From sequence record NC_028780.1: a DNA stretch of 64,000 bases; one strand, written 5' to 3'. Origin of the DNA: Escherichia phage slur07. Shown here one piece after another: positions 1-4,930 of the stretch. A program made the position numbers and the translations under genes. The notes below the pieces were generated by a model. That model did not search any database, was not told the DNA's origin, and saw only the letters and a program-made list of their open reading frames with translations. How positions within the stretch are numbered: position 1 is the stretch's first letter; every line of letters starts with the position of its first letter.

Positions 1-1
1 A

Positions 2-256
2 ATAAAAGACCATGTTTTAGAAGTTAATGAATTCCTGAGTATGCCTCCGCGTCCTGACATTGACGAGGATTTTATTGATGGGGTTGAATATCGTCCTGGA
101 CGTTTAGAAATCACAGATGGAAATCTTTGGCTTGGATTTACAGTTTGTAAACCTAACGAGAAGTTCAAAGACCCGTCACTTCAATGTAGGATGGCAATTA
201 TCAACAGTCGTCGTTTACCAGGAAAGGCTTCTAAAGCAGTAATTAAAACTCAATGA
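2..256 (+). CDS. hypothetical protein, probably 5'-truncated by window edge
   Basis: Frame is open from position 2 to stop at 256 (track ORF 41..256); no recognisable motif. Confidence 0.3.
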   Translation: MKDHVLEVNEFLSMPPRPDIDEDFIDGVEYRPGRLEITDGNLWLGFTVCKPNEKFKDPSLQCRMAIINSRRLPGKASKAVIKTQ

Positions 257-263
257 GGTAAGC

Positions 264-809
264 ATGAGAAAAGCACTACTCGCTGGTCTATTGGCCATTT
301 CAATGATGGCACATAGCTCCGAGCATACTTTCAGTAATGTCCAACTCGATAACATGCGTTACGCGTATCAATTCGGGGAACAATTTTCTAAGGATGGAAA
401 ATATAAAACACATAAAAATATCCACAAGAGCGGATTAGGTCATATAATGGCAGCCATTTTATGGCAAGAAAGCTCTGGCGGAGTTAATTTAAAATCTAAA
501 CCAAAGCATCACGCTTATGGAATGTTCCAAAATTATTTGCCTACTATGCGAGCGAGAGTTAAGGAACTTGGTTATAATATGACCGATGCTGAAATAAAAA
601 GAATGTTGAATAAACGGTCCAATTCAGCTTCCTGGGCGTACATTGAACTTTCTTATTGGTTAAATATACATAAGGGCGATATAAGAAAAGCAATATCCTC
701 TTATAATTCGGGATGGAATGTTAAAGCAGGTTCTAGATATGCTTCTGAAGTCCTAGAAAAGGCTAATTACCTTAAAAATAATAAACTTTTGGAAATAGTA
801 AATGACTAA
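264..809 (+). CDS. putative secreted lytic transglycosylase-like protein
   Basis: 181 aa; N-terminal signal peptide MRKALLAGLLAISMMAHS; WQESSGG...YGMFQ segment resembles SLT-domain catalytic region (E-S ... G.FQ). Confidence 0.5.
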   Translation: MRKALLAGLLAISMMAHSSEHTFSNVQLDNMRYAYQFGEQFSKDGKYKTHKNIHKSGLGHIMAAILWQESSGGVNLKSKPKHHAYGMFQNYLPTMRARVKELGYNMTDAEIKRMLNKRSNSASWAYIELSYWLNIHKGDIRKAISSYNSGWNVKAGSRYASEVLEKANYLKNNKLLEIVND

Positions 810-1143
810 AATTTTGGTTTTATGTATAGGATTAATTTCATTTTCTGCGTTAGCAGATACATCATATACTGAAATTAGAGAGTATGTAAACCGTACTGCA
901 GCGGATTATTGCGGGAAAAATAAAGCATGTCAAGCTGAATTTGCACAGAAATTAATATATGCATATAAAGACGGAGAAAGAGATAAATCAAGTAGATACA
1001 AAAACGATACATTATTAAAACGATATGCTAAAAAGTGGAATACCTTAGAATGTTCAGTTGCGGAGGAGAAAGATAAAGCCGCTTGTCATTCAATGGTTGA
1101 CCGTTTGGTAGATTCTTATAATCGAGGATTGAGTACTAGATGA
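802..1143 (+). CDS. secreted hypothetical protein
   Basis: 113 aa; signal peptide (MTKILVLCIGLISFSALA); start overlaps upstream stop; 4 Cys. Confidence 0.45.
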   Translation: MTKILVLCIGLISFSALADTSYTEIREYVNRTAADYCGKNKACQAEFAQKLIYAYKDGERDKSSRYKNDTLLKRYAKKWNTLECSVAEEKDKAACHSMVDRLVDSYNRGLSTR

Positions 1144-1607
1144 TTGTAAAATATATCAAGGGCGATATTGTCGCCCTTTTCGCTGAAGGTAAAAATATTG
1201 CGCATGGATGCAATTGTTTTCATACTATGGGTTCAGGCGTAGCGGGTCAATTAACCAAAGCTTTCCCTAAAATTTTGGAAGCTGATAAATTACAGACTGA
1301 ATGGGGTGATGTAACTAAACTCGGTTCTTACTCAGTCTATGAAAAATACTTTAGGACTCATAAAGCGTATTGCTTTAATCTTTATACTCAATTTCAACCA
1401 GGGCCAAATTTTGAGTATTCCGCTTTAATGAATTGTATGTTAGAATTAAATGAGTTTGGTGAAAATAAACTGATTAAACCTACAATCTATATGCCTAGGA
1501 TTGGTGCAGGCATAGGTAAAGGGAACTGGGATATTATTGAGGGGATTTTAGATACATATTCCTCTAAATTAGAAATTGTGATTGTTGATTGGGAACCGTT
1601 ATTATGA
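1140..1607 (+). CDS. macro-domain protein (TARG1/OARD1-like ADP-ribose binding/hydrolase fold)
   Basis: 155 aa; KGDIVA...NIAHGCNCFHTMGSGVAGQL...MPRIGAGIGKGNW matches TARG1 blocks (KGDLFA / LAHCISEDCRMGAGIA / MPRIGCGLDRLQW); ATGA-coupled start. Confidence 0.7.
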   Translation: MIVKYIKGDIVALFAEGKNIAHGCNCFHTMGSGVAGQLTKAFPKILEADKLQTEWGDVTKLGSYSVYEKYFRTHKAYCFNLYTQFQPGPNFEYSALMNCMLELNEFGENKLIKPTIYMPRIGAGIGKGNWDIIEGILDTYSSKLEIVIVDWEPLL

Positions 1608-1816
1608 ATATACATTATCCACATCCGTATGACCCAAAGAATAAGGCAGTAATTATTCGTCAATGGGAACGCATTTGTCGTACTAAATGTCCAATTAATA
1701 GTCCACATGATGTAGATAAAGACTACATTGGAACATTCGTTGAATATACCTTTATTGATAAGAAAGGTCGTAAACAGCATGTAGAAGAATACTGCTTAAA
1801 GGTGACATGGTTATGA
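1604..1816 (+). CDS. hypothetical protein
   Basis: 70 aa; ATG 1604 overlaps upstream TGA (ATGA coupling); Cys/His-containing. Confidence 0.45.
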   Translation: MNIHYPHPYDPKNKAVIIRQWERICRTKCPINSPHDVDKDYIGTFVEYTFIDKKGRKQHVEEYCLKVTWL

Positions 1817-2019
1817 GCCAAACTAGTATTCTTAAAAATGCCCACTGTGAAAAGTGTAAATGGCCGGTTGTTTTTGCTTTATGCAACGATGAAATGGCTT
1901 GTGATTTCGATTATTGGTGCTATTGTTCTAATAAAGGATGCATCAATCATAAAGGTGAAGGATTTTATTCGGGATTTTATCCTTATCCAGATTTCGTTAA
2001 AGAAGGTAAACCGAAATGA
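1813..2019 (+). CDS. hypothetical Cys-rich protein
   Basis: 68 aa; 8 Cys (CEKCKW...CNDEMACDFDYWCYCSNKGC); ATGA coupling. Confidence 0.45.
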   Translation: MSQTSILKNAHCEKCKWPVVFALCNDEMACDFDYWCYCSNKGCINHKGEGFYSGFYPYPDFVKEGKPK

Positions 2020-2189
2020 ATAGTTCTGAGTTACAATATGAAGTGTTACGTGAACTTGATAATTTAATTGAACTCGCTGTTAATAAAGGTTTTGCCATTG
2101 GAATTGGTCAAAAAGATACTGATCATTTAACTGTGGAAATATTTAAGCAAAAGCGAATTATTTTAAAACTTTTGGAAATTAATATATGA
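2016..2189 (+). CDS. hypothetical small protein
   Basis: 57 aa ORF not in track (<60 aa); ATGA overlaps at both ends linking 1813..2019 and 2186..2371. Confidence 0.35.
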   Translation: MNSSELQYEVLRELDNLIELAVNKGFAIGIGQKDTDHLTVEIFKQKRIILKLLEINI

Positions 2190-2371
2190 GTTTAAGCAAA
2201 GAACAAAAAGACAAACTCTTTTCTCTTATCCACGAAGTTATGGATAAAAACAGTGAATTGGAAAAAGTTTGTGATGAATGCGGTCCTTTTAATGCAAATG
2301 AATACGAAGAACTTTCTAAAGAATTCGATAATAAAGAACAAGAACTTATTAATTATATAAATTCCTTATGA
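2186..2371 (+). CDS. hypothetical small acidic helical protein
   Basis: 61 aa; N-terminal (S/T)xEQK motif shared with 2368..2556 and 4367..4930 ORFs. Confidence 0.45.
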   Translation: MSLSKEQKDKLFSLIHEVMDKNSELEKVCDECGPFNANEYEELSKEFDNKEQELINYINSL

Positions 2372-2556
2372 TTACTCGCGAACAAAAGAACGAAATATTA
2401 TTTTTAGTTGGTGAAATTATTAGTTTAGAAAAGGATTTGTCTTTTGAAATATCTTCTGAATATGGAGATGCCGAAACATATTACGAATTAGTAAAATCTA
2501 TCGATAAAGTTGAAAATGATTTAGAAACATATTTAGAAAATTTAACTAAGGACTAA
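2368..2556 (+). CDS. hypothetical small acidic helical protein (paralog of previous)
   Basis: 62 aa; MITREQKNEILFL... similar to MSLSKEQKDKLFSL... Confidence 0.45.
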   Translation: MITREQKNEILFLVGEIISLEKDLSFEISSEYGDAETYYELVKSIDKVENDLETYLENLTKD

Positions 2557-2557
2557 G

Positions 2558-3139
2558 ATGGCGAGTTTAATTTTTACTTATGCAGCAATGAATGCTGGAA
2601 AATCTGCTTCTCTTTTGACTGCTGCACATAATTATAAAGAACGTGGAATGAGTGTATTAGTTCTTAAGCCTGCTATTGATACTCGCGATTCTGTCTGTGA
2701 AGTCGTTTCTCGCATTGGAATTAAGCAGGAAGCGAATATTATTACAGATGATATGGATATTTTCGAGTTCTATAAATGGGCTGAAGCACAAAAAGATATT
2801 CATTGCGTATTTGTAGATGAAGCTCAGTTTTTAAAAACTGAACAGGCGCATCAATTGAGCCGAATTGTTGATACATATAATGTTCCTGTTATGGCTTATG
2901 GGCTAAGGACTGATTTCGCTGGAAAATTATTTGAAGGTTCTAAAGAACTTTTAGCGATTGCAGATAAACTTATTGAACTAAAGGCAGTTTGTCATTGTGG
3001 TAAAAAAGCGATTATGACAGCTCGATTAATGGAAGATGGATCACCAGTTAAAGAAGGTAATCAAATCTGTATTGGTGATGAAATTTATGTTTCTTTGTGT
3101 AGAAAACATTGGAATGAATTAACTAAAAAGCTCGGTTAG
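2558..3139 (+). CDS. tk: thymidine kinase
   Basis: 193 aa; P-loop YAAMNAGKS, VDEAQF, C-terminal Cys/His zinc site (CHCG...C); matches T4 Tk length. Confidence 0.9.
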   Translation: MASLIFTYAAMNAGKSASLLTAAHNYKERGMSVLVLKPAIDTRDSVCEVVSRIGIKQEANIITDDMDIFEFYKWAEAQKDIHCVFVDEAQFLKTEQAHQLSRIVDTYNVPVMAYGLRTDFAGKLFEGSKELLAIADKLIELKAVCHCGKKAIMTARLMEDGSPVKEGNQICIGDEIYVSLCRKHWNELTKKLG

Positions 3140-3181
3140 TGCAAAAGTTATAAATAGGTTTATCTAACTAAAGGGGTATAT

Positions 3182-3394
3182 ATGCTACAATTAACTGAAA
3201 AGCAACTTCGCAATCTTACTGTTCTTCAATTAGATGAAATTCGTAGGGAAGTTGGAAATATCATTTCAGCTTTGCGTCGAGAAGTATCACTCAACCAATC
3301 TCCGGCAGACTATACTAGATTGCGAAATTTTGAAAAATACCTTGATAAAGTTAAGGCCGTGCATCGGCATAAAGTAAATACAGGACAAAAATGA
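3182..3394 (+). CDS. hypothetical protein (rI.1 position)
   Basis: 70 aa ORF between tk and rI with SD-like aaagggg upstream. Confidence 0.45.
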
Positions 3395-3406
3395 TAGGAG
3401 GCCTTT

Positions 3407-4181: not shown

Positions 4182-4367
4182 AAAATTGAAGCACTTAATC
4201 AAGAAGGAAATATCTACGTCATCATTAATGGTGATTTTTTCGTCGACATGGATGAAGTTACTAGTGAAGAACTTGTAGAATTTCTTAAGAAACGTTATAA
4301 TATGTGTGATGAAGTTGCAACTCACATGGCGTGTGCAATATTCTCTCTTTCATATGTGGTGGAATAA
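4179..4367 (+). CDS. hypothetical protein
   Basis: 62 aa from ATG 4179 downstream of cassette; track ORF start 4134 rejected because it translates the promoter leader. Confidence 0.5.
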
Positions 4368-4570
4368 TGATTAGTATCGAACAAGCGGATAAAATTAAGG
4401 AATTGGTAGCTTTAATTCGTAAAGCAGATGAGGAACTTAGTGACTTTGCTTGGTTTTCGTCAGGCATTGCAAATAAAAGTATTGAAGAACTTGAAGATAA
4501 AGTTAATAATGCTGTAGAAGCGTTAGATATGTTTCTTGATGAAATTATCGATCATAATACGAGAGTTTAA
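4367..4570 (+). CDS. hypothetical small helical protein
   Basis: 67 aa; TAATG overlap with upstream gene; xEQ(A/K)xKI motif. Confidence 0.45.
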   Translation: MISIEQADKIKELVALIRKADEELSDFAWFSSGIANKSIEELEDKVNNAVEALDMFLDEIIDHNTRV

Positions 4571-4572
4571 GT

Positions 4573-4767
4573 ATGCTAACACGCGAACAGTTTGAAAAAA
4601 TCATTAAATTAGCACGTGATATTGAAATAGATTCATATCAATTAGCAGTTGAGCATTGTGAAGGATATTCATACGACGGTATAGAAGCAGCTAAAAAGGA
4701 TTTGGATAAATCCAAAGCTAAGTTAGTTCAATATCTTGAAATGATTAGGTGGAATAATGAAAACTGA
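4573..4767 (+). CDS. hypothetical small helical protein
   Basis: 64 aa; MLTREQFEKIIKL... family-like N-terminus. Confidence 0.45.
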   Translation: MLTREQFEKIIKLARDIEIDSYQLAVEHCEGYSYDGIEAAKKDLDKSKAKLVQYLEMIRWNNEN

Positions 4768-4930
4768 AAAGCAGATGTTTTTAATGAAGCTAATTGAAGA
4801 ATATGCTAATGCAGTTTCTGACTATGAATGTTCTTCTCGTGAAAGAGGTACAGCTTTCGCAAAGGAAGAAATGAAAATCATGGTTGATGCTCATACAAAG
4901 CTTCAGAATTTTATCGAAAACGTCATTTAA
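4757..4930 (+). CDS. hypothetical small protein
   Basis: 57 aa ORF not in track; MKTEKQMFLMKLIEEY...; overlaps upstream gene by 11 nt. Confidence 0.35.
   Translation: MKTEKQMFLMKLIEEYANAVSDYECSSRERGTAFAKEEMKIMVDAHTKLQNFIENVI

What the first reader, a model, noticed from the sequence alone, without database searches (positions are those of the whole stretch)
1140..1607. TARG1/OARD1-like macro-domain protein in the tk-upstream operon
The 155-aa protein aligns block-for-block with the TARG1-type macro domain (KGDIVA; NIAHGCNCFHTMGSGVAGQL; MPRIGAGIGKGNW). Macro domains bind or remove ADP-ribose. In a phage this could reverse host ADP-ribosylating defences (for example DarT-type DNA ADP-ribosylation), sponge ADP-ribose-derived immune signals, or edit the phage's own ModA/ModB ADP-ribosylation. 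The position that is Asp in the TARG1 GCGLDRL block appears substituted here (GAGIGKG), so it may be binding-only or use a different mechanism. I could not confirm from memory whether T4 itself carries this gene.
Basis: partly seen in the sequence, partly recalled or inferred. Interest (0 to 1): 0.65.

Follow-up and report, generated by a model that had tools for sequence, protein, structure and literature searches.

The report
T4 tk.4/AdfM anti-DarT2 macrodomain gene
This is the phage T4 gene tk.4, a small ADP-ribose-removing (macro domain) protein that a 2025 preprint already showed protects T4 from the bacterial DarTG2 defence, so the finding is correct but already known.

Summary
It is 100% identical to phage T4 Tk.4. 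The window is a T4-like Tequatrovirus, and the gene lies between vs and tk.3, upstream of tk.

A 2025 bioRxiv preprint (HIDEN-SEQ) found tk.4 as the single T4 gene needed against DarTG2. A clean knockout sensitised T4, and the authors named the gene adfM.

What I add:
- Both TARG1 catalytic residues are replaced, not only the Asp. K84 becomes an invariant Gln84, and D125 becomes Gly/Ala.
- This does not imply a binding-only protein. Streptomyces SCO6735 has the same Gln and cleaves thymidine-linked ADP-ribose on DNA.
- The residues SCO6735 needs (Asn27, Gln85, Gly128) are invariant here as N25, Q84 and G124.

The biochemistry of T4 Tk.4 itself remains untested. Novelty: already known. Interest is low.

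The parts
1140..1607 (+). tk.4 / adfM coding sequence (155 aa plus stop), a standalone macro domain protein
1158..1175 (+). KGDIVA block (K7-A12). G8-D9 is the conserved Gly-Asp at the end of strand 1, and the Asp is the adenine-contacting residue in macrodomains.
   Evidence: Translation checked. G8 and D9 are invariant across Tk.4, BT_1257, SCO6735, TARG1, DarG and PhiKZ gp104. The adenine contact is inferred from general macrodomain knowledge.
1203..1217 (+). H22-G23-C24-N25-C26, the active-site loop. It maps onto SCO6735 His24-Val25-Cys26-Asn27.
   Evidence: G23 and N25 are invariant, and H22, C24 and C26 are at least 90% conserved, in 54 homologues. H22, N25 and C26 are invariant in 83 loci, although these three are partly selected for by the search pattern. 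Mapping. SCO6735 N27S is nearly dead and the Val25 backbone positions the proposed catalytic water (PMC9411070). PhiKZ AdfM N23A is impaired.
1227..1247 (+). M30-G36 (MGSGVAG), the GxG phosphate-binding loop at the N-terminus of helix 1
   Evidence: G33 and A35 are invariant and M30 is at least 90% conserved. The block aligns with MGAGIA of TARG1 and MGKGIA of DarG.
1284..1286 (+). Asp49, a family-specific invariant residue of unknown role. BT_1257, SCO6735, DarG and PhiKZ gp104 have Tyr at this position.
   Evidence: Invariant in 54 homologues. Invariant in 83 of 83 genomic loci although it is not part of the search pattern. Alignment.
1383..1391 (+). Y82-T83-Q84. Gln84 occupies the position of the catalytic Lys of TARG1 (K84) and DarG (K80), and of the essential Gln85 of SCO6735.
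   Evidence: All three residues are invariant in alignment A1. Q84 is Gln in 83 of 83 loci, a position not biased by the search pattern. HMM alignments pair YTQ with ITK of TARG1 and PTK of DarG. MAFFT alignment. SCO6735 Q85A and Q85E are inactive.
1491..1529 (+). M118-W130 (MPRIGAGIGKGNW), the second diphosphate/ribose-binding loop. G124 corresponds to SCO6735 Gly128, and G126 sits at the position of TARG1 Asp125.
   Evidence: P119, I121, G122 and G124 are invariant. Position 126 is Ala or Gly in all 83 loci. Aligned with MPRIGCGLDRLQW of TARG1. SCO6735 G128E has reduced activity.
802..1143 (+). vs (valyl-tRNA synthetase modifier), the upstream gene. Its stop codon overlaps the tk.4 start (ATGA).
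1604..1816 (+). tk.3, the downstream gene. Its ATG overlaps the tk.4 stop (ATGA).

Best explanation
The ORF is the T4-type gene tk.4, recently named adfM (anti-DarT factor, macrodomain). It encodes a standalone 155-aa macro domain of the ALC1-like/TARG1-like class, made before DNA replication from the regB-vs-tk gene string.

Its most likely job is to strip ADP-ribose from thymine bases that the host DarT2 toxin attaches to single-stranded phage DNA. That would let replication proceed in cells carrying the DarTG2 defence.

The chemistry is probably not the Lys-dependent mechanism of TARG1 and DarG. It more likely follows the Gln-type mechanism described for Streptomyces SCO6735. In that scheme Gln84, held by Asn25, fixes the distal ribose and the transition state. 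A water molecule held by the backbone of the HGCNC loop starts cleavage of the N-glycosidic bond, and free ADP-ribose and intact thymine are released.

Status of each step:
- Shown here: macro-domain identity, fold, clade, and conservation of the residues.
- Shown in the literature, genetically and in a preprint only: tk.4 is required for T4 resistance to DarTG2.
- Inferred: that protection works by hydrolysing ADP-ribose from DNA, and that the mechanism is Gln-based.
For: Identity and context:
- 100% identical to T4 Tk.4, with tk.4 synteny in RB14.
- Pfam Macro scores above its cutoff.
- The family profile hits BT_1257 at 1e-17, M. tuberculosis DarG at 1e-14, TARG1 at 2e-14, Poa1p at 5e-14 and SCO6735 at 1e-13, against about 5e-3 for nsp3-type domains.
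- The PADLOC DarG model matches at 1.3e-9 and NCBIfam DarG at 2.5e-7, both over the macro part only.

Genetics from the literature:
- tk.4 was the single significant HIDEN-SEQ hit on a DarTG2 host, and a clean knockout sensitised T4.
- T4 lacking both adfA and adfN remains DarTG2-resistant, so another factor was expected.

Mechanistic precedent:
- SCO6735 has Gln85 at the Lys position and cleaves dT-ADPr DNA faster than DarG or TARG1.
- Q85A/E, N27S and G128E lose activity.
- The equivalent Tk.4 residues Q84, N25 and G124 are invariant, and H22 is at least 90% conserved.

Consistency checks:
- T5 is DarTG2-sensitive and has no homologue (best 10 bits).
- A different phage macrodomain, PhiKZ gp104, removes DarT2 marks in vitro.
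- T2 Tk.4 protein is detected in infected cells.
Against: - No biochemical assay of T4 Tk.4 exists in what I could find. The preprint itself says only that hydrolysis 'seems likely', and it is not peer-reviewed.
- The catalytic Lys that is essential in DarG (K80) is absent.
- The protein lacks the 5-residue longer, Lys-bearing 'mobile loop' that the SCO6735 authors link to high DNA activity.
- It carries an invariant Asp49 of unknown role where relatives have Tyr.
- Its bacterial relatives are not linked to darT, so the family's ancestral substrate may be something else.
- Public annotation calls the protein a 'phosphatase', by analogy with Poa1p.
Confidence: 0.75

Rival explanations
1. The main substrate is a small ADP-ribose derivative rather than DNA. 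Candidates are ADP-ribose-1''-phosphate (Poa1p-like 'phosphatase'), O-acetyl-ADP-ribose, or an ADPr-derived immune signal. Under this view the DarTG2 phenotype is a side activity.
Against: The only experimental phenotype is DarTG2-specific. Poa1p has Ser, not Gln, at the key position, whereas the dT-ADPr hydrolase SCO6735 shares the Gln, Asn and Gly. The 'phosphatase' label is transferred annotation, not a measurement.
Confidence: 0.1
2. The protein acts without catalysis. It would bind and inhibit DarT2 directly, or bind ADP-ribosylated DNA, as the reader's 'binding-only' reading suggests.
For: Both residues of the TARG1 dyad are absent. Catalytically dead SCO6735 Q85A still inhibits DarT in vitro by interaction, and DarG also neutralises DarT by binding.
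Against: The residues needed for catalysis in SCO6735 (N27, Q85, G128) are invariant across phage and bacterial homologues that have no DarT partner. That pattern is what an enzyme active site would show. The protein lacks the C-terminal DarT-binding domain of DarG: it is 155 aa and matches only positions 2-146 of the 338-position DarG model.
Confidence: 0.07
3. The protein erases or edits the phage's own ADP-ribosylation (Alt, ModA, ModB, including ModB RNAylation) on host proteins.
For: T4 encodes three ADP-ribosyltransferases (review PMC8120803). A phage-encoded eraser would be a natural partner.
Against: The Alt and ModA sites named in the review are arginines (MazF Arg84 and the RNA polymerase alpha-subunit Arg265). 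ALC1-like macrodomains are documented on Glu/Asp esters and on thymine or uracil bases, and I found no report of Arg-ADPr activity for this class. tk.4 is dispensable on plain E. coli K-12 and became important only with DarTG2. tk.4 is not adjacent to any ADP-ribosyltransferase gene: its neighbours are vs and tk.3.
Confidence: 0.05

Closest known systems
Phage T4 Tk.4 = AdfM (anti-DarT factor Macrodomain), bioRxiv 10.1101/2025.11.20.689424
   Same: 100% identical protein. Same genomic position between vs and tk.3. The published phenotype is that T4 needs it to resist DarTG2.
   Different: Nothing differs at the protein level. The host phage is a close T4 relative (98.9% to Shigella phage JK38). 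It carries the two small RB32ORF111c/110c-type ORFs that RB14 annotates between tk.3 and tk.2. That standard T4 lacks them is from my memory of the T4 map, not checked here.
Streptomyces coelicolor SCO6735 and Bacteroides BT_1257 (Gln-type ALC1-like macrodomains; PDB 5E3B, 2FG1/2AFC)
   Different: Identity is only 21-29%. Tk.4 lacks the 5-residue longer Lys-bearing mobile loop that defines that subclass. It has Gly23 instead of Val25, and an invariant Asp49 instead of Tyr.
DarG antitoxin macrodomain (M. tuberculosis 5M3I, T. aquaticus 5M31/5M3E, Thermosipho 7OMU)
   Different: The catalytic Lys80 is replaced by Gln84. There is no C-terminal DarT-binding domain, and the score is 30 bits against a 250-bit equivalog cutoff. 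The gene is not next to darT.
Human TARG1/OARD1 (4J5S, 2L8R)
   Different: Both dyad residues are absent: K84 is Gln84 here and D125 is Gly126. Identity is about 22%.
PhiKZ gp104, also named AdfM (Cell Rep 2026, PMC13309987)
   Same: A phage standalone macrodomain that counters DarTG2. It removes DarT2-made ADPr from ssDNA in vitro, and its conserved Asn (N23) is needed.
   Different: It is a different lineage. BLASTP aligns only 23 residues (E=0.005), and hhalign gives 96% probability. It keeps the DarG-type 'FPTK' lysine. It is imported into the phage nucleus.
Yeast Poa1p (ADP-ribose-1''-phosphate phosphatase, 6LFQ)
   Different: It has Ser at the Gln84 position and a different second loop. 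Its documented substrate is a small molecule.

Membership tests
Macro domain superfamily (Pfam PF01661) | Profile match above the curated gathering score | tested here: met
   27.7 bits against a cutoff of 22, E=2.9e-6, covering residues 22-132.
Macro domain superfamily (Pfam PF01661) | Three-layer alpha/beta/alpha macro fold | tested here: met
Macro domain superfamily (Pfam PF01661) | ADP-ribose pocket motifs: Gly-Asp after strand 1, a GxG loop before helix 1, and a second Gly-rich loop | tested here: met
   G8-D9, G31-S32-G33 and G122-A123-G124 are present and conserved. Actual ligand binding was not tested.
TARG1/OARD1 orthologues | Catalytic Lys (human K84) | tested here: not met
   The aligned residue is Gln84. 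It is invariant in 54 homologues and in 83 genomic loci.
TARG1/OARD1 orthologues | Catalytic Asp (human D125) | tested here: not met
   The aligned residue is Gly126, and it is Ala or Gly throughout the family.
DarG antitoxin (NCBIfam NF048014) | Equivalog score cutoff and two-domain architecture (macro domain plus C-terminal DarT-binding domain) | tested here: not met
   30.3 bits against a cutoff of 250. Only model positions 2-146 of 338 are matched, and the protein is 155 aa.
DarG antitoxin (NCBIfam NF048014) | Catalytic Lys80 | tested here: not met
   PTK of M. tuberculosis DarG aligns with YTQ of Tk.4.
DarG antitoxin (NCBIfam NF048014) | Encoded next to darT | tested here: not met
   The neighbours in the window are vs and tk.3. 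No DarT2 homologue lies within 6 kb on either side of the homologue in 83 loci (best tblastn E=3.1).
SCO6735/BT_1257 subclass of ALC1-like macrodomains | Gln at the Lys position, supported by a conserved Asn and a loop Gly (SCO6735 Q85, N27, G128) | tested here: met
   Q84, N25 and G124 are invariant. Mapping is, and the functional data.
SCO6735/BT_1257 subclass of ALC1-like macrodomains | Mobile loop five residues longer than in TARG1/DarG, bearing Lys residues | tested here: not met
   The Tk.4 loop (QFQPGPNFEY) has TARG1/DarG length, whereas BT_1257 and SCO6735 carry a 5-6 residue insertion.
SCO6735/BT_1257 subclass of ALC1-like macrodomains | Hydrolysis of thymidine-linked ADP-ribose on ssDNA | not testable with these tools
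   This needs an enzyme assay. Only genetic evidence exists for T4 tk.4.
T4 AdfM (tk.4) | Sequence identity and synteny with T4 tk.4 | tested here: met
   100% identity over 155 aa to T4 record X04567.1. The order regB-vs.1-vs-tk.4-tk.3...tk is the same as in RB14.
T4 AdfM (tk.4) | Confers resistance to DarTG2 | not testable with these tools
   Reported for T4 in the preprint. A supporting correlation is that DarTG2-sensitive T5 has no homologue.

The most novel reading that the evidence does not exclude
[quoted passage not shown] Its signature is HGCNC ... invariant Asp49 ... YTQ ... GAGI[AG]GGDW, with a short loop after the Gln. It is present in about 5% of sequenced phage records and in hundreds of bacterial species as a standalone gene. 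The family would use Lys-independent, Gln/Asn/water-based chemistry, possibly involving Asp49. It might have a wider substrate range than DarG, for example uracil-ADPr on RNA or Glu/Asp-ADPr on protein. T4 AdfM could then blunt ADP-ribosylating defences beyond DarT2.
Probability: 0.3. Interest if true: 0.4.

Novelty: already known. Interest (0 to 1): 0.2.

Why it matters
DarTG systems stop phages by ADP-ribosylating their DNA, so knowing which phage genes undo this explains host range and matters for choosing therapeutic phages. For this gene the key biological answer is already public: T4 tk.4/adfM counters DarTG2.

The open part is enzymological. The T4 protein lacks the lysine that DarG needs and instead looks like the glutamine-type enzyme SCO6735. 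It is therefore a compact, very widespread model for Lys-independent removal of ADP-ribose from DNA bases. The common database label 'phosphatase' on thousands of phage homologues is probably misleading.

Tried and rejected
- **An origin as a DarG-like antitoxin.** I scanned 185,579 species genomes and found at least 519 relatives. Among the 80 best loci there was no DarT2 homologue within 6 kb. No neighbour was conserved; the largest neighbour cluster covered 10 of 80 loci and consisted of housekeeping genes. An origin as a darT-linked antitoxin is therefore not supported for this clade. Sensitivity was limited to tblastn with one DarT2 sequence.
- **'Bacterial' homologues from MAGs.** P0072 and P0118 turned out to lie on T4-like phage contigs carrying Rnl1, PNKP, spanin and dCMP deaminase. 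They say nothing about cellular function.
- **Equivalence of the two proteins called AdfM.** PhiKZ gp104 is only remotely related and keeps the Lys. Its biochemistry cannot simply be transferred to Tk.4.
- **Promoter and terminator scan of 1-3400.** Counts equal the shuffled expectation: 16 against 15.5 promoter-like sites and 2 against 1.5 terminator-like sites. It was uninformative.
- **RNA fold around the tk.4 start.** The fold is not significantly more stable than shuffles (z=-1.76, 14 of 200).
- **E. coli genomes.** There is no DNA-level copy of the gene.
- **Geometry of Asp49.** I could not measure its position relative to the pocket because model coordinates are not exposed to the scripting tool.
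- **Searches not run.** I skipped the 1.84-billion-protein representative search and further fold libraries, because the answer would not change.

Full report
**Observation**

The window carries an ATG-started ORF at 1140..1607 on the + strand encoding 155 aa. The gene overlaps its neighbours by ATGA at both ends. It lies in one co-directional gene string: regB (3' end), vs.1, vs, this ORF, tk.3, two small ORFs, tk.2, tk.1, then tk at 2558..3139.

**Identity**

The first 4 kb of the window is 98.4-98.9% identical to many Tequatrovirus genomes, including Shigella phage JK38, RB14 and RB27. In RB14 the corresponding gene is annotated tk.4. tblastn shows that phage T4 itself encodes a 100% identical 155-aa protein (X04567.1, 'ORF 60.5'). 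Homologues occur in 2749 of 50,697 phage records.

Public annotations for the gene vary between 'macro domain-containing protein', 'phosphatase' and 'hypothetical protein'.

**Is it a macro domain?**

Yes, on three lines of evidence.
- Pfam Macro (PF01661) scores 27.7 bits against a gathering cutoff of 22. PHROG 335 scores E=1e-65.
- A profile built from 54 homologues (alignment A1) hits solved macrodomains:

| Structure | E-value |
|---|---|
| BT_1257 | 1e-17 |
| M. tuberculosis DarG | 1e-14 |
| TARG1 | 2e-14 |
| Poa1p | 5e-14 |
| SCO6735 | 1e-13 |
| T. aquaticus DarG | 4e-12 |
| coronavirus/alphavirus macrodomains | about 5e-3 |

The protein therefore belongs to the ALC1-like/TARG1-like class. 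'TARG1-like' is a fair description of the class, but not of the closest relatives.

**What is already known**

A bioRxiv preprint of November 2025 (HIDEN-SEQ, 10.1101/2025.11.20.689424) infected a DarTG2-expressing host with a saturated T4 transposon library.
- tk.4 was the single significant hit.
- A clean tk.4 deletion sensitised T4 to DarTG2.
- The authors noted structural similarity to the DarG macrodomain and named the gene adfM.
- They stated that removal of ADP-ribose from DNA 'seems likely'.

Earlier work had shown that T4 lacking adfA and adfN is still DarTG2-resistant, so another factor was predicted (PMC11825919).

Independently, a Cell Reports 2026 paper named the PhiKZ macrodomain gp104 AdfM as well. 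It showed in vitro removal of DarT2-made ADP-ribose from ssDNA, impaired by N23A (PMC13309987).

The finding is not new.

**What my analysis adds: the active site**

HMM and MAFFT alignments show that the catalytic Lys is replaced too.
- TARG1 'ITK84' and DarG 'PTK80' align with 'YTQ84' here.
- TARG1 'GLD125' aligns with 'GIG126'.

Gln84 is invariant in 54 diverse homologues. It is also Gln in 83 of 83 genomic loci, and this position was not part of the search pattern. DarG needs Lys80 for activity (review PMC8120803), so this could look like a dead enzyme.

It very probably is not. Streptomyces SCO6735 is 54% identical to BT_1257 and has Gln85 at the same position. It still cleaves thymidine-linked ADP-ribose on DNA faster than DarG or TARG1, and it rescues E. 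coli from DarT. Q85A/E and N27S abolish its activity, and G128E reduces it. A water held by the Val25 backbone is the proposed initiator of cleavage (PMC9411070).

I recovered the SCO6735 sequence from the PDB and aligned it. SCO6735 His24/Val25/Asn27/Gln85/Gly128 map to Tk.4 His22/Gly23/Asn25/Gln84/Gly124. All of these are invariant or at least 90% conserved in the Tk.4 family.

The best mechanistic reading is therefore a Gln-type, Lys-independent ADP-ribosyl-thymine glycohydrolase.

**How Tk.4 differs from the SCO6735 subclass**

- It has the short loop after the Gln, as in TARG1 and DarG. It lacks the 5-residue longer, Lys-bearing 'mobile loop' that defines the SCO6735/BT_1257 subclass.
- It has an invariant Asp49 where BT_1257, SCO6735, DarG and PhiKZ gp104 all have Tyr. 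The role of Asp49 is unexplained.
- The profile scores to BT_1257, DarG, TARG1, Poa1p and SCO6735 all fall between 49 and 67 bits. The family looks like a separate branch of the class rather than a member of any named subgroup.
- The PhiKZ 'AdfM' is a different lineage. BLASTP aligns only 23 residues, hhalign gives 96% probability, and it keeps the DarG-type Lys. Two unrelated-by-descent phage macrodomains thus share one name.

**Where the family lives**

- Two homologues labelled as bacterial MAG proteins are on T4-like phage contigs.
- A scan of one genome per bacterial species found at least 519 relatives. Some lie in large chromosomes, including Calothrix, Desulfobacter, Ruegeria and Hymenobacter.
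- In the 80 best loci there is no DarT2 homologue within 6 kb and no conserved neighbour. The cellular versions are standalone genes, not antitoxins of a darT operon.
- There is no DNA-level copy in 5,426 complete E. coli genomes.
- T5 is sensitive to DarTG2 and has no homologue in its whole genome. The best hit is 10 bits, against 209 bits for tk.4 in the window as positive control.
- T2 Tk.4 protein has been detected by proteomics in infected cells.

**Rival readings**

- *Small-molecule hydrolase ('phosphatase', signal degrader).* This rests on transferred annotation and on Poa1p similarity. Iyer et al. also argue generally that phage Macro domains target soluble ADPr derivatives. It is not excluded as a second activity, but the only phenotype is DarTG2-specific.
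- *Non-catalytic DarT2 inhibitor.* This is conceivable, because dead SCO6735 inhibits DarT. However, conservation of the active site in homologues without any DarT partner argues for an enzyme.
- *Eraser of the phage's own Alt/ModA/ModB marks.* No evidence supports this. The Alt and ModA sites named in the review are arginines, and I found no report of Arg-ADPr activity for this macrodomain class.

**Verdict**

The gene is T4 tk.4/adfM and its anti-DarTG2 role is already in the literature, so the novelty rating is 'already known'.

The residual interest is enzymological. No biochemistry exists for the T4 protein. It lacks the DarG lysine, it represents a very large uncharacterised branch with its own invariant Asp, and thousands of database entries call it a phosphatase.

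Noticed in passing
window 802..1143 (vs) and 264..809 (vs.1): Both products begin with what looks like a cleavable Sec signal peptide: Vs has MTKILVLCIGLISFSALA|DT and Vs.1 has MRKALLAGLLAISMMAHS|SE. For Vs.1, which looks SLT/lytic-transglycosylase-like, this fits. For Vs it is odd, because Vs is annotated as a modifier of the cytoplasmic valyl-tRNA synthetase. The HIDEN-SEQ preprint reports that vs is needed on minimal medium.
   Followed up: no
window 1116..1178: Two predicted RNA hairpins sit around the tk.4 start. One pairs the region containing the tk.4 AUG (about 1116-1149). The other is a perfect 9-bp stem, AAGGGCGAU/AUCGCCCUU-type, at 1158-1178 inside codons 7-13. The overall fold is not significantly better than shuffles (z=-1.76). 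It might relate to translational coupling with vs, or to the reported ArcZ-tk.4 mRNA chimeras in T2.
   Followed up: partly
window 1807..2019 and 2016..2189: Two small ORFs lie between tk.3 and tk.2. RB14 annotates them as RB32ORF111c and RB32ORF110c. From my memory of the T4 map, not checked here, they are absent from standard T4. The first is Cys/His-rich (CEKCKWP...CNDEMAC...CYCSNKGCINH) and looks like a small zinc-binding protein.
   Followed up: no
window 2186..2556 and 4331..4930: Several tandem ORFs of about 57-79 aa appear to be paralogues. They include tk.2, tk.1 and the ORFs at 4331-4570, 4573-4767 and 4757-4930. All are acidic and helical with a shared pattern ('..REQ..K(I/L)..L...I...'). 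This suggests a repeatedly duplicated small-protein family of unknown function flanking tk and rI.
   Followed up: no
L002 1..5809 (phage contig mis-binned in a Bacilli MAG): On this T4-like contig the Tk.4 homologue sits directly between RNA ligase 1 (with a DUF4326 protein) and a Dda/PIF1-like helicase, and PNKP lies 2.5 kb downstream. This is an RNA-repair neighbourhood, unlike the T4 position.
   Followed up: no
L085 6447..8094 (phage T5 genes T5.102-T5.105): T5 lacks a Tk.4-type macrodomain, yet two nearby genes are annotated Sir2 (NAD-dependent deacetylase/ADP-ribosylase). The second (T5.105, 168 aa) is too short for a canonical sirtuin, so its annotation may be wrong.
   Followed up: no
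literature: The name AdfM has been given independently to two only remotely related phage macrodomains: T4 Tk.4 (Gln-type) and PhiKZ gp104 (Lys-type). This is a nomenclature collision that could mislead annotation transfer.
   Followed up: yes
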